A stretch of 64,000 bases of DNA, from NCBI GenBank assembly GCA_020381345.1, contig GCA_020381345.1_3636.1. One strand, 5' to 3'. Position 1 is the stretch's first letter. The number at the start of each line of letters is the position of its first letter. This DNA is from a phage. Shown here piece after piece: positions 57,789 through 62,725 of the stretch. A program made the translations under genes and the position numbers. A model generated the notes under the pieces. The model searched no databases, had not been told where the DNA came from, and saw only the letters and a program-made list of their open reading frames with translations.

Positions 57789-57819
57789 TACTTGAAAATT
57801 CCTGGCATATCAAGTATAA

Positions 57820-58300
57820 GGGGGATTTCTAAAATGGATTTCCTCCTTTTGATATTTCACCGGGCCGGATATTTTAAAATTCTTAGAAAATCAGAAAATG
57901 GATCGAAAACTAAAATGGATTTTTCAGAGTAGGCGCGACAAGCTGAATAACTCATCCTATCGTTTGCACCATATTCCAGGCCACCATTATAGATTTCCCA
58001 CACATGCTAACCTCTCTCTACTAGAACTTCCTCCACTTACCCTTGACCTTCTATGGTAACAATCTAACCGCTATCTTGAAGTTGCGGTGCAGCTTTCCAG
58101 GTACTCGATCTACTTTTCATTTCAGGGCTTGGATTTTCTGAAAATTTTTCTCGATAAATTTCTCAGTACTCGATCTGTTTTTCGTTTTCTGAATCGGATT
58201 TTCTGGAAATCGTTCCGGCTCTCAACCTGAAATTTTTGGGGACGAAATCGATTTTTCGTTTTCAGAAATGGATTTTTAAAATTTCTATATGGGAATATTT
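57820..58300. repeat. AT-rich non-coding region with recurring AAAATGGATTT / GGATTTTCTG / ATCGAAAAC motifs
   Basis: No credible ORF; motif recurs at ~57833, 57896, 57913, 58131, 58196, 58270. Confidence 0.5.
58098..58210. repeat. imperfect ~48-bp direct repeat, two copies, ~66-bp period
   Basis: CAGGTACTCGATCTACTTTTCATTTCAGGGCTTGGATTTTCTGAAAAT vs CAGTACTCGATCTGTTTTTCGTTTTCTGAATCGGATTTTCTGGAAAT. Confidence 0.55.
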
Positions 58301-58392
58301 TAGTGGATACTATTTTATAGTAAATTGTTACGGAGGGTAATTAGCGTGCTAATTAAATTTATTAAATGCGAGGAGTTCTCATTTAGAATTTT

Positions 58393-58650
58393 GAATGATA
58401 ATCATTCTCGTTTGCAGAATAACGGGCAGGCCCAGTGATTGTCTCCCGGCCCCTGTTGCCCCGGCTTGTTATTATAGTATCACACAGGACAAAGAAAGCA
58501 AGGATTTTTTGCATAAATTTTTAAATGATAATGATAACCGTTCTCATTTTATGCAGCGCCCATCCCCGGTGGTTGTCTCCCCCGTCACCGGTGCCTGCCG
58601 TCCTTTCGATAGGTATATTGTGCCACCTGGCGGGGCCGCTGTCAACACTT
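58393..58650. repeat. two paralogous GC-rich units in otherwise AT-rich spacer
   Basis: Both start AATGATAAT, then TTCTC, GCAG, TTGTCTCCC, GTGCC; second unit followed by direct repeat CCTGGCGGGG. Confidence 0.4.
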
Positions 58651-58742
58651 TTCAAAAAATTTTTCTAACCTGATGCGCTAACCGCTGCAACCTGGCGGGG
58701 GCGGCAGGTGGATTCTATCATAAAAATAATTTAAAATAGTCG

Positions 58743-59563: not shown

Positions 59564-59968
59564 ATGAATAAGAACGTACGCCGCATCATGAACGAGTTGG
59601 CAAACGATGAAAAAATTATTGACATGCATTTGATCAACATTTGCCGCCGTTGTGTAACATATAACAACCGCGCCGCAAAAGCGCGTGAGATGAACGCAAA
59701 AGGCACCTTAAAGCCATTCCAGGTGGTGGTAAAGGCCATTAAAGATGTAACTAATACGGCAAACCAGGTACAGGGGAACACCAACGAGAGTACCAACATT
59801 GATCCGGCTTACATCATGAAACGGATCCGGACCTGCAAGAACAAAGAGCAAGTGTATAATGTCATAGACTGGTTGGATTCTATGGGCGATGTGGTTTACA
59901 ATAGGTTTTCTGCAGCTATCGAGATCCAGCTTGACAGGTTGGACGGTAAAGTACTGAAAACTTACTAA
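59564..59968 (+). CDS. early protein, hypothetical
   Basis: AAAGGAAAAAG RBS; 134 aa. Confidence 0.45.
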   Translation: MNKNVRRIMNELANDEKIIDMHLINICRRCVTYNNRAAKAREMNAKGTLKPFQVVVKAIKDVTNTANQVQGNTNESTNIDPAYIMKRIRTCKNKEQVYNVIDWLDSMGDVVYNRFSAAIEIQLDRLDGKVLKTY

Positions 59969-59979
59969 GTTTATTTTTA

Positions 59980-60016
59980 GATGGCCTTGACTTCAGGGCC
60001 ATCAATAAAGTAAACT
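59980..60016 (+). promoter_or_regulatory. promoter cassette: 7-bp-stem hairpin enclosing -35 (TTGACT) then TAAACT
   Basis: GATGGCC TTGACTTCAG GGCCATC inverted repeat; near-identical copy at 60604-60640. Confidence 0.5.
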
Positions 60017-60171: not shown

Positions 60172-60172
60172 T

Positions 60173-60199
60173 TGACAAACTAACTTAGATCGATATACT
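60173..60199 (+). promoter_or_regulatory. sigma70-like promoter (early)
   Basis: TTGACA-15-TATACT. Confidence 0.4.
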
Positions 60200-60250
60200 T
60201 AAACACGTAAACGGGAAAACTTCCCAGAGCACACAAAAGGAGAAAACACC

Positions 60251-60592
60251 ATGACTACTATGACCGCCGCAGAAAAAGCTATGCAGATCGCCGCGCTGAA
60301 AAAACAGATCGCAGACCTTGAGAACAAGATCGATAACTTTGAAATCGACGAGGACAAGTACGACGAAAACTATGATGAATGGTTAGACGAGATCTACGGC
60401 GAAATTATGATCGGAAACATTTCTTTTCTTCCGTCGCGTATCCTCAAGGAGCTAGATCCTATCGCTTACCGCTGCGGATTTAGCGACTACATTGACAGCC
60501 TGGATATTGAGGACGATGAAGAATACCAGGAACTACAGACAGAGTTAGAAGAAGCAAAAGAAGAGCTTGCGGAGCTGGAAGAAAACGAGTAA
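60251..60592 (+). CDS. very acidic early protein, candidate DNA-mimic anti-restriction protein (Ocr-like by composition and context)
   Basis: AAAGGAGA RBS; 113 aa, Asp/Glu-dominated, ends EELAELEENE. Confidence 0.45.
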   Translation: MTTMTAAEKAMQIAALKKQIADLENKIDNFEIDEDKYDENYDEWLDEIYGEIMIGNISFLPSRILKELDPIAYRCGFSDYIDSLDIEDDEEYQELQTELEEAKEELAELEENE

Positions 60593-60603
60593 GATTATTT
60601 TTA

Positions 60604-60640
60604 GATAGCCTTGACTTCAGGGCCATCAATAAAGTAAACT
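60604..60640 (+). promoter_or_regulatory. promoter cassette copy (hairpin + TTGACT ... TAAACT)
   Basis: GATAGCCTTGACTTCAGGGCCATCAATAAAGTAAACT. Confidence 0.5.
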
Positions 60641-60681: not shown

Positions 60682-60927
60682 ATGGCAGCACTAATCACCA
60701 AATATTACGCCCCTACCAACACCAAAAGCGCCCGTATCATGGTAAAAGGCTTCGGACGTAAAAAGGTTTACACCTGGGATTATTCCCTAGACATGGAAGA
60801 CAACTACACCAACGCGATGACCGATTTTATTAACGAGCTGAATACGCGGATCTTAACAAATTATAAAATTACCGACATTGCTTATATAGGTGAAGGCGGG
60901 ATCTGTTTTGTAGGCATTGTGAAATAG
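60682..60927 (+). CDS. early protein, hypothetical
   Basis: AGAGGAG RBS; 81 aa. Confidence 0.4.
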   Translation: MAALITKYYAPTNTKSARIMVKGFGRKKVYTWDYSLDMEDNYTNAMTDFINELNTRILTNYKITDIAYIGEGGICFVGIVK

Positions 60928-61002
60928 TTATTTTTTCGGTGGTCCTTGCTGCAGGGCCATCTATAAAGATAATTTACTAACACCATGAAAGGAGAAAGTA
61001 AC

Positions 61003-61766: not shown

Positions 61767-62027
61767 ATGCGTAAATTAAAAAATTTTGATAAAGTTGATG
61801 TTGTCCTGAATAATTTTTACTACTGCAATAACAAGGCCATTTGGTGGCGTGATAGTTCCACCGATAAGGTTAAGGCGCGCTTTCTCCAGGGGCACTGGCA
61901 AGGCCGCCCAGTGATTAAAATCATGGGGCAATTGGTAGCGTTTAAAAATTGCCGCCGTGTTGATGACGTTGAAGAGATTTTAAACATTTTGCGCCACAAT
62001 AATTTAAAAAATAGTGTTGACAAGTAA
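61767..62027 (+). CDS. early protein, hypothetical
   Basis: AGGAAGGAG RBS; 86 aa. Confidence 0.4.
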   Translation: MRKLKNFDKVDVVLNNFYYCNNKAIWWRDSSTDKVKARFLQGHWQGRPVIKIMGQLVAFKNCRRVDDVEEILNILRHNNLKNSVDK

Positions 62028-62044
62028 ATCTCGATAAGTATACT
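62017..62044 (+). promoter_or_regulatory. sigma70-like promoter (early)
   Basis: TTGACA-16-TATACT. Confidence 0.5.
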
Positions 62045-62101: not shown

Positions 62102-62725
62102 ATGACCACCGTTAACATTACCACAGGTTGCAATTTATCTTTCGACGTGCTGACCGACGAACAAAAAGAAAAAGCTATTGAAATGGTCCGCGAAAGAGAA
62201 GAACACAGCGGAGAGGATTTTTTCGCAGAAAGTGTAATTGAATATTATAAAGAACAAGTTTTTCCAGAGTACGGCCTTGAAGATACCGATGTACATTGGT
62301 CCGGATTTTGGTGTCAAGGCGATGGCGCGTCAATTAGTGCTGAAAATGTAGACTTAGAAAAATTCTTGCGTAAAGTCAAGGCCCTGACCAAGTTCCGATC
62401 AATTCGTCACTTGTTTGGCACAATGCACGATGGCGAACTATCAGCCAGTGTTGAACGCGACAAGTACAGCCATTATAGCCATGAAAACACTGTAAGCGGA
62501 TACATTGATACTACATGGCTAGACCTGACCACCAAGCAAGAAAACAAAGTGGAAGATCTGGAAGAGCTGATCACCGAGACGGTACGGGAGTTATCCCGCA
62601 AGGTTTACGTAGACCTGGAGGAGGCCTATCTTGAACAATTCACCGCCGAAAACTTGATCGGCCTTATCGAGGCCAATGATTGGCGGTTTGATGTCGATGA
62701 ATATGGTGAGATGACTTTTTCATAA
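62102..62725 (+). CDS. acidic early protein, hypothetical
   Basis: CAGGAGA RBS; 207 aa, acidic. Confidence 0.45.
   Translation: MTTVNITTGCNLSFDVLTDEQKEKAIEMVREREEHSGEDFFAESVIEYYKEQVFPEYGLEDTDVHWSGFWCQGDGASISAENVDLEKFLRKVKALTKFRSIRHLFGTMHDGELSASVERDKYSHYSHENTVSGYIDTTWLDLTTKQENKVEDLEELITETVRELSRKVYVDLEEAYLEQFTAENLIGLIEANDWRFDVDEYGEMTFS

What the first reader, a model, noticed from the sequence alone, without database searches (positions are those of the whole stretch)
60251..60592. Highly acidic 113-aa early protein: candidate DNA-mimic anti-restriction factor
Asp/Glu dominate the sequence, which ends in an acidic helix (EELAELEENE). Size, charge and position (early, near the putative genome end, own strong promoter) parallel T7 Ocr and other DNA mimics. 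There is no sequence identity to Ocr; the call rests on composition and context.
Basis: inference. Interest (0 to 1): 0.5.

Follow-up and report, generated by a model that had tools for sequence, protein, structure and literature searches.

The report
Acidic early phage protein, unknown family
A real, very acidic 113-residue gene of an rV5-like E. coli phage belongs to a large uncharacterised family found almost only in virulent phages; it matches T7 Ocr in size and charge but is unrelated to it, so a DNA-mimic role is plausible and unproven.

Summary
ORF 60251-60592 (+) encodes 113 aa with 31% Asp+Glu, net charge -26 and pI about 4. It is the most acidic of 85 plus-strand ORFs. It has its own TTGACA-16-TATACT promoter and an AAGGAG ribosome-binding site.

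The window is a Vequintavirus (about 94% identical to phage FV3), and the gene is not near a genome end. It belongs to PHROG 9294. A profile search finds about 3,900 clusters, nearly all in virulent phages, with no Pfam or PDB relative.

AlphaFold gives a confident model: a conserved ~55-aa head (YDxxLDExYG...SRxLKELDPIAYRCGFSDY) on an antiparallel N/C-terminal helical hairpin. Acidity sits in two helices whose sequences drift while their charge is kept.

It is not an Ocr or ArdA homologue (hhalign 0.3%; no fold match). One T7-like phage carries both a family member and a true Ocr.

Circumstantial support for a DNA-mimic role:
- Size and charge match Ocr.
- T7-like phages carry it in their early left-end region.
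- BASEL raw data show Vequintaviruses with 9-15 EcoKI sites are barely restricted by type I systems but strongly by type II and III.

That insensitivity is not specific to phages carrying this gene. Best reading: a stand-alone acidic decoy of a host DNA-binding protein, target unknown.

The parts
60172..60199 (+). Sigma-70-type promoter TTGACA - 16 nt - TATACT (11 of 12 consensus matches), starting right after the stop codon of the upstream 39-aa ORF
   Evidence: promoter scan; 23 sites found against 11.3 +/- 3.5 in shuffles of the region; sequence
60237..60242 (+). Shine-Dalgarno AAGGAG, 8 nt upstream of the ATG
   Evidence: read directly; the same AAAGGAGAAA..ATGA motif recurs at 60988 (family D9)
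60251..60592 (+). CDS of 113 aa plus stop codon; acidic protein of PHROG 9294
60266..60334 (+). Residues 6-28: N-terminal heptad helix (I13, L16, I20, L23, I27, F30), carrying about half of the protein's few lysines; one arm of the antiparallel stalk
60341..60499 (+). Residues 31-83: conserved head domain. It comprises acidic helix 34-49 (YDxxLDExYG), beta-hairpin 52-59, and helices 61-68 and 70-83 (SRxLKELDPIAYRCGFSDY). D69, A72, Y73, C75 and D79 are invariant or nearly so.
   Evidence: alignments; the head alone (64-aa P0056) folds at pLDDT 85.5 and pTM 0.69
60500..60589 (+). Residues 84-113: acidic linker and C-terminal heptad helix (Y92, L95, L99, A102, L106, L109), with nearly all exposed positions Asp or Glu; second arm of the stalk
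60590..60640 (+). 51-nt cassette beginning at the stop codon: T-run, a 7-bp stem-loop (GCCTT..AGGGC) and an embedded TTGACT-18-TAAACT promoter-like site. It is repeated after the two neighbouring genes (59966, 60924). It probably separates transcription units; its role was not tested.
   Evidence: family D1

Best explanation
The gene encodes a stand-alone, early-made, strongly acidic inhibitor of a host protein. It has two parts. The first is a conserved ~55-residue head (helix, beta-hairpin, two helices; signature YDxxLDExYG...SRxLKELDPIAYRCGFSDY). The second is an antiparallel coiled-coil hairpin formed by the N- and C-terminal helices. The negative charge is concentrated on head helix 31-50 and on the C-terminal stalk helix 84-113. 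I propose that these acidic helices act as a nucleic-acid-like decoy that occupies the DNA-binding surface of a host DNA-binding protein soon after infection. The conserved head would supply fold and target specificity. This is 'tailored' DNA mimicry of the kind shown for T7 Ocr and gp5.9. A type I restriction-modification or BREX-type methyltransferase complex is one plausible target, but the target is not determined. Shown: gene, promoter, composition, family, predicted architecture, and lack of homology to known mimics. Inferred: early timing, decoy mechanism, and target.
For: Composition equals that of Ocr (113 aa, 35 D+E, net -26, against 117 aa, 34 D+E, net -28). Acidity is a family trait: 197 small members have median 31% D+E, median net -27, and all have pI of at most 4.97. 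Across 146 members the two acidic helices keep 41-42% D+E (sd 0.07) while pairwise identity is only 0.32-0.33, which suggests selection on charge rather than on sequence. The gene has its own sigma-70 promoter. In T7-like phages the family gene lies in the left-end early region before RNAP or primase (Lepni01, Proteus 309, RS1pmA). PAK_P3 gp086 has its own annotated promoter within a block of small genes, and the syntenic PAK_P4 block is the experimentally defined early region (PMC5563952). There is no conserved neighbour gene in 88 loci, so it acts alone. The family is absent from plasmids and nearly absent from 185,579 bacterial genomes, so it is confined to virulent phages, as Ocr is. BASEL raw data for Bas57-59, which carry 96-99% identical orthologues and, for Bas58 and Bas59, 9 and 15 EcoKI sites: EOP is 0.06-0.83 on EcoKI and 0.22-1 on EcoCFT_I, but about 1e-4 on EcoRI and no plaques on EcoRV or EcoCFT_II. 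A siphovirus with 3 EcoKI sites plates at about 1e-4 on EcoKI. The window shows no avoidance of type I sites (9 EcoKI sites against 6.6 expected). There is precedent for structurally diverse acidic viral DNA mimics with tailored targets (PMC7617805).
Against: No sequence, profile or fold similarity to any solved DNA mimic was found. The most conserved segment (residues 61-83, pairwise identity 0.53) is only 17% acidic, so the family may be defined by a specific protein-protein interface, or simply by its fold. A genuine Ocr (61% identical to T7 Ocr) co-exists with a short family member in Proteus phage 309, which argues against simple redundancy with Ocr. Type I insensitivity is also seen in phi92-like and Felix O1-like BASEL phages, so it cannot be assigned to this gene. 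The BASEL authors attribute weak type I restriction to the rarity of sites. The surface charge geometry and oligomeric state could not be computed here. Acidic coiled coils also occur in proteins that do not mimic DNA.
Confidence: 0.4

Rival explanations
1. One reading: a functional analogue of Ocr that blocks type I R-M (and possibly BREX) by mimicking DNA in the HsdM2S cleft.
For: Vequintaviruses carrying the gene are almost unrestricted by EcoKI and EcoCFT_I despite 9-15 and 4-6 sites, yet are fully sensitive to type II and III systems. That is the Ocr/ArdA specificity profile. Type I sites are not avoided in the window. Size and charge match Ocr. The gene has an early-type promoter. No other acidic ORF in this window hits a known anti-restriction family.
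Against: The gene responsible for the phenotype is unmapped, and only half of the genome is in the window. Other large BASEL phages are equally insensitive. A family member co-exists with a true Ocr in Novosibovirus phages. There is no homology or fold match to Ocr or ArdA.
Confidence: 0.17
2. A host-takeover protein whose conserved head binds a universal non-defence host protein, such as RNA polymerase, a nucleoid protein, a protease or a replication factor, through a specific protein-protein interface. In this view the acidity gives solubility or electrostatic steering and does not mimic DNA.
For: The strongest conservation lies in the weakly acidic SRxLKELDPIAYRCGFSDY motif. The head occurs alone (64-83 aa) and in tandem copies without a stalk. 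The family spans phages of Proteobacteria, Actinobacteria and marine hosts, which implies a very conserved target.
Against: Even head-only members are strongly acidic (net -11 to -24). No known interaction motif or family match was found.
Confidence: 0.23
3. A phage-internal role, for example an accessory factor of phage replication or transcription, or a chaperone or assembly factor with a prefoldin-like shape.
For: It lies in the same orientation and long gene block as the replication genes (rV5 transcription-unit description, PMC3606486). The best Foldseek PDB hit is prefoldin beta, though not significant (E=2.7, TMq 0.44). The wide distribution resembles that of a semi-core accessory gene.
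Against: There is no conserved partner or neighbour gene. T7-like phages place it among class I-like early genes. The fold matches are generic helical hairpins only.
Confidence: 0.15

Closest known systems
T7 Ocr (gp0.3; Pfam PF08684)
   Same: Nearly the same length, acidic content and net charge. An acidic C-terminal tail. Found only in virulent phages. Expressed from host-RNAP promoters. Family members in T7-like phages lie in the same early left-end region.
   Different: No sequence or profile relation. A different predicted architecture: a helix/beta-hairpin head on a helical hairpin, with no match to the Ocr fold in the PDB. It co-occurs with a true Ocr in Proteus phage 309. Its distribution is much wider, in phages of many phyla.
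T7 gp5.9 (RecBCD and MukBEF inhibitor; PDB 8B1R)
   Same: A small acidic helical viral protein in which carboxylates on helices replace DNA phosphates, with 'tailored' mimicry that can reach more than one target (PMC7617805). It shows that acidic helices are sufficient for DNA mimicry.
   Different: gp5.9 is much smaller (about 52 aa, from my own knowledge) and lacks the conserved head. No sequence hit was found against PDB chains, a set that should include 8B1R. Oligomeric state is unknown here.
ArdA (Pfam PF07275; PDB 2W82)
   Same: An acidic anti-type-I DNA mimic with wide taxonomic spread.
   Different: ArdA is carried by plasmids and conjugative elements, whereas this family is absent from 72,556 plasmids. 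There is no profile or fold match.
PHROG 9294, 9396 and 37123 (unknown function)
   Same: This protein is a full-length member of PHROG 9294 (E=5e-54). Its head matches PHROGs 9396 and 37123.
   Different: These families carry no functional annotation, so membership says nothing about mechanism.

Membership tests
Ocr (PF08684) | Sequence or profile similarity to the Ocr family | tested here: not met
   BLASTP against T7 Ocr gives E=0.45 over 15 residues of acidic tail. hhalign of the family alignment A2 against an alignment of 22 Ocr sequences (A3) gives probability 0.3%. PF08684 is not among the listed Pfam hits at E up to 10.
Ocr (PF08684) | The Ocr fold (PDB 1S7Z) | tested here: not met
Ocr (PF08684) | Small, very acidic protein (about 117 aa, net about -28) | tested here: met
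   113 aa, net -26, pI about 4.05, against Ocr at 117 aa, net -28.
Ocr (PF08684) | First-expressed gene at the leading genome end | tested here: inconclusive
   A strong sigma-70 promoter is present. The gene lies about 23 kb from the end of the FV3 record, inside a long block of small genes. No transcript data exist for this phage.
Ocr (PF08684) | Inhibits type I R-M or BREX by binding the methyltransferase core | not testable with these tools
   Only indirect data: Vequintaviruses carrying the orthologue plate at EOP 0.06-1 on EcoKI and EcoCFT_I, but so do other large phages.
ArdA (PF07275) | Profile or fold similarity to ArdA, and carriage on conjugative elements | tested here: not met
   No ArdA hit among the listed Pfam matches, PDB sequence matches or fold-search matches. 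Absent from plasmids apart from a misfiled phage genome.
DNA-mimic proteins (functional class) | Small size, pI below 5, high Asp+Glu content | tested here: met
   The property is conserved in all 197 small family members examined.
DNA-mimic proteins (functional class) | Surface carboxylates spaced like DNA phosphates | not testable with these tools
Only the linear pattern could be read: nearly all non-heptad positions of helices 34-49 and 88-113 are Asp or Glu.
DNA-mimic proteins (functional class) | Binds a DNA-binding protein in competition with DNA | not testable with these tools
   Needs pull-down or competition assays.
PHROG 9294 | Full-length profile match | tested here: met
   E=4.6e-54, residues 1-113 against profile positions 1-119 of 127.
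Prefoldin beta-like | Significant structural match to the prefoldin beta fold | tested here: not met
   Foldseek E=2.7, probability 0.28, TMq 0.44.

The most novel reading that the evidence does not exclude
This family is a new, structurally unrelated class of modular DNA mimic, built from a conserved head and a charge-selected acidic coiled-coil stalk. Virulent phages of many bacterial phyla would use it to neutralise type I R-M or BREX-like DNA-sensing defences, or another universal DNA-binding guardian. It would also explain why Vequintavirinae with many EcoKI sites escape type I but not type II or III restriction.
Probability: 0.17. Interest if true: 0.7.

Novelty: new variant of a known kind. 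Interest (0 to 1): 0.45.

Why it matters
A 2025 catalogue of 268 phage anti-defence proteins lists only 11 DNA mimics (bioRxiv 10.1101/2025.06.06.658234). A family with about 3,900 clusters at 50% identity, no Pfam entry and no solved structure would add a common new type of decoy, if it is one. It would also give a candidate gene for the type I-specific restriction insensitivity visible in the BASEL raw data for Vequintaviruses, a group used in phage therapy and biocontrol. If it is not a mimic, it is still a widespread conserved early protein of virulent phages with a confidently predicted small domain that matches no solved structure, and its host target would be worth finding.

Tried and rejected
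- Homology to Ocr is rejected. I had noticed by eye a shared 'P..Y...FS' spacing between Ocr (AVPHYYADIFS) and this family (LDPIAYRCGFS), but hhalign gave probability 0.3%.
- PDB sequence searches with the single protein and with the family profile gave only coiled-coil noise.
- Foldseek against BFVD gave only uncharacterised phage proteins of the same family.
- Pfam scans of the protein, eight neighbours and ten longer fusion proteins were uninformative. The one hit above cutoff was Kyano_Gp96, itself of unknown function.
- A search for a conserved partner gene in 88 loci found none.
- Plasmid and bacterial-genome searches found essentially nothing.
- A recent Vequintavirus record, checked for other annotated anti-restriction genes, was annotated 'hypothetical' throughout.
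- Nine other acidic ORFs of the window are all in PHROGs of unknown function, or are tail-fibre assembly proteins.
- I tried to use phi92-like BASEL phages as a gene-negative control for EcoKI sensitivity. This failed because they are equally insensitive, and related Stephanstirmvirinae carry a homologue.
- Distance from contig ends in 17 contigs of 30-60 kb was mixed: 9 lay within 15% of an end and 8 did not.
- Literature searches found no paper on this protein or family.

Full report
**The object.** ORF 60251-60592 on the plus strand starts with ATG and encodes 113 residues. It has 22 Glu and 13 Asp (31%) against 9 Lys+Arg, giving net charge -26 and pI about 4.05. It is the most acidic of 85 plus-strand ATG ORFs of at least 60 aa in the window; the next has 23%. 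An AAGGAG site lies 8 nt upstream of the ATG. A TTGACA-16-TATACT promoter-like site lies at 60172-60199, directly after the stop codon of a 39-aa hydrophobic ORF.

**Where the window comes from.** The region is about 94% identical at the DNA level to Escherichia phage FV3 and more than 100 other Vequintavirus (rV5-like) genomes of about 137 kb. The FV3 orthologue, FV3_00176, is annotated 'hypothetical'. It lies at 113.8 kb of 136.9 kb, inside a long same-strand block of small genes that continues for more than 6 kb past the window end. The 'near the genome end' argument therefore fails. The gene is under purifying selection: 5 synonymous and 2 non-synonymous codon differences from FV3, and residues 1-86 are 100% identical in many records. 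For rV5, sigma-70-type promoters were reported across the genome, and the block containing this gene was assigned to one long transcription unit by gene layout only (PMC3606486). 'Early' is thus an inference.

**Family.** Pfam gives only sub-threshold coiled-coil noise. PHROG 9294 (unknown function) matches over the full length at E=5e-54, and PHROGs 9396 and 37123 match residues 38-101.
- A word-indexed search found 71 relatives down to about 40% identity.
- A profile search of 1.84 billion cluster representatives found 3,861 hits at E up to 1e-3 and 1,638 at E up to 1e-10. Some weak hits may reflect acidic coiled-coil bias. Of the 218 family sequences retrieved, 186 carry the D-P-x-A-Y core motif.
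- The conserved signature is YDxxLDExYG...(beta-hairpin)...SRxLKELDPIAYRCGFSDY, with D69, A72, Y73, C75 and D79 invariant or nearly so.
- The head occurs alone in 64-83-aa proteins. It also occurs in tandem in odd marine multi-domain proteins.
- Named relatives are in Vibrio, Klebsiella (Stephanstirmvirinae), Pseudomonas (PAK_P3, KPP10 and PAK_P1-like), Proteus, Providencia, Pseudoalteromonas, Clavibacter and Gordonia phages. All are uncharacterised.
- The family is absent from 72,556 plasmids apart from a misfiled Vequintavirus genome. In 185,579 bacterial species genomes it was found only on four MAG contigs (the scan is pattern-based, so its sensitivity is limited). It therefore belongs essentially to virulent phages.

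**Structure.** AlphaFold2 with the family alignment gives mean pLDDT 88.9 and pTM 0.62. The elements are helix 6-28, helix 34-49, strands 52-54 and 57-59, helices 61-68 and 70-83, and helix 90-111.
- The head alone (64-aa P0056) folds to the same helix/hairpin/helix/helix unit at pLDDT 85.5 and pTM 0.69.
- Independent BFVD models of relatives with 23-44% identity superpose at TM 0.77-0.81.
- No solved structure matches beyond generic hairpins. The best Foldseek hit is E=2.7, and no Ocr or ArdA chain, nor any other DNA mimic I recognise, is among the matches shown. PDB sequence and profile searches are also empty.

**Where the charge sits.** Across 146 family members, segments 31-50 and 84-113 hold 41-42% Asp+Glu (sd 0.07) and 2-5% Lys+Arg, while pairwise identity is only 0.32-0.33. 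Segment 61-83 is the best conserved (0.53) but only 17% acidic. All 197 small members have pI of at most 4.97, with median net charge -27. Charge is therefore conserved as composition in two helices, and sequence is conserved in the head. This fits a charge-driven surface combined with a specificity or fold module.

**Tests against known mimics.** hhalign of the family alignment against 22 Ocr sequences gives probability 0.3%. BLASTP gives E=0.45. The protein is therefore not an Ocr-family member, and nothing supports ArdA membership either. Proteus phage 309 (Autographiviridae) carries a 71-aa family member (pp309_000004). About 1.1 kb downstream it carries a genuine Ocr homologue, pp309_000009, which is 61% identical to T7 Ocr and hits PF08684. 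The two are thus not simple substitutes, at least for the stalk-less form.

**Context in other phages.**
- In T7-like genomes the gene lies in the left-end early region, upstream of the RNA polymerase gene (Lepni01) or of the primase/helicase genes (Proteus phages 309 and RS1pmA).
- PAK_P3 gp086 has its own annotated promoter in a block of small genes. The equivalent block of the related phage PAK_P4 is the experimentally defined early region (PMC5563952).
- Clustering all same-strand ORFs of 88 loci found no neighbour family shared by more than 13 loci, so there is no conserved partner.

**Phenotype data.** The BASEL paper's text calls Vequintavirinae 'exceptionally susceptible' to R-M systems (PMC8594841). 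Its raw plating data are more specific. Bas57, Bas58 and Bas59 carry 96-99% identical orthologues. Bas58 and Bas59 have 9 and 15 EcoKI sites and 4 and 5 EcoCFT_I sites. The stocks were grown on a restriction-free host.

| System (type) | EOP for Bas57-59 |
|---|---|
| EcoKI (I) | 0.06-0.83 |
| EcoCFT_I (I) | 0.22-1 |
| EcoRI (II) | about 1e-4 to 1e-3 |
| EcoRV (II) | no plaques in nearly all trials |
| EcoCFT_II (III) | no plaques |

In the same data set a siphovirus with 3 EcoKI sites plates at about 1e-4 on EcoKI. The window itself has 9 EcoKI and 9 EcoBI sites, against 6.6 and 8.3 expected, so type I sites are not avoided. This is the pattern expected from a type I-specific inhibitor. However, phi92-like and Felix O1-like phages show the same insensitivity, and the BASEL authors attribute it to the rarity of sites. 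The phenotype is therefore compatible with the hypothesis but not specific to this gene. No other strongly acidic ORF in this half-genome hits a known anti-restriction family.

**Interpretation.** The best-supported reading (about 0.4) is a stand-alone, early, stoichiometric acidic decoy of a host DNA-binding protein. The head would give fold and specificity, and the two acidic helices would give the DNA-like surface. This is in line with the 'tailored mimicry' shown for structurally unrelated viral mimics such as Ocr and gp5.9 (PMC7617805). The specific claim of type I R-M or BREX inhibition gets about 0.17. A non-mimic host-takeover binder acting through the head gets about 0.23. A phage-internal role gets about 0.15. 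None can be decided without experiments or co-folding.

**Verdict.** The protein is not a member of any characterised family. If it is a mimic, it is a new structural variant of a known kind of counter-defence. Interest is moderate (0.45). Acidic early ORFans are routine candidates, but this one defines a very large, confidently folded and wholly uncharacterised family with a cheap and decisive test available.

Noticed in passing
window 59966-60016, 60590-60640, 60924-60974: A 51-nt cassette follows the stop codons of three consecutive small genes (copies 96% and 71% identical to the first). It holds a T-run, a 7-bp GGCC-type stem-loop, and an embedded TTGACT-18-TAAACT promoter-like site. It resembles the composite promoter/terminator 'PeSL' cassettes described for T4-like phages (PMC4122927, title and abstract only).
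   Followed up: partly
window 57800-58740 (repeats at 58091-58276 and 58621-58703): A stretch of about 0.9 kb has no convincing ORF. It contains three copies of a ~47-nt direct repeat spaced 65 and 74 nt apart, and a second pair spaced 65 nt apart. No tRNA genes were found anywhere in the window. It may correspond to the 'non-coding' box drawn for rV5; an origin or iteron role is a guess.
   Followed up: partly
P0096, P0101, P0106, P0135, P0139, P0160, P0199 (metagenomic proteins of 211-837 aa found by the family profile; origin not recorded): These multi-domain proteins have two tandem copies of the head domain followed by many unrelated small domains. The domains are separated by a recurring AETF(G/E)A linker. 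An EF-hand-like DRNKDGKIS motif and a C-terminal membrane anchor are also present. No Pfam hits. They look like polyproteins or strings of small phage-like domains.
   Followed up: no
window 62102-62725 (+): A second acidic protein two genes downstream: 207 aa, 22% D+E, pI 4.4. It is in PHROG 5162 (unknown function) with no Pfam hit, and has its own TTGACA-16-TATACT promoter at 62017-62044. It is another candidate host-interaction protein.
   Followed up: partly
whole window: EcoRI sites (GAATTC) are strongly under-represented, with 3 observed against about 19 expected from base composition. EcoRV (27 against 19), EcoP1I and type I sites are not depleted.
   Followed up: no
BASEL data for Bas57-63 (PMC8594841, S1 Data): Large myoviruses of three groups (Vequintavirus, phi92-like, Felix O1-like) are nearly unrestricted by both type I systems, and for the Vequintaviruses this is despite 9-15 EcoKI sites. 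[quoted passage not shown] The gene or genes responsible are unassigned.
   Followed up: partly
search_dna_similar hits H6-H9, H21-H23 (MG0656xx records): Seventeen records named 'Campylobacter phage', with host given as C. jejuni, are 94-100% identical to E. coli Vequintaviruses in this region. This suggests mislabelled or contaminant entries.
   Followed up: no
plasmid record CP057073.1 (137,565 bp): A record filed as a non-mobilizable E. coli plasmid carries the orthologue at 93% identity and has the size of a Vequintavirus genome. It is most likely a phage genome or pseudolysogen filed as a plasmid.
   Followed up: no
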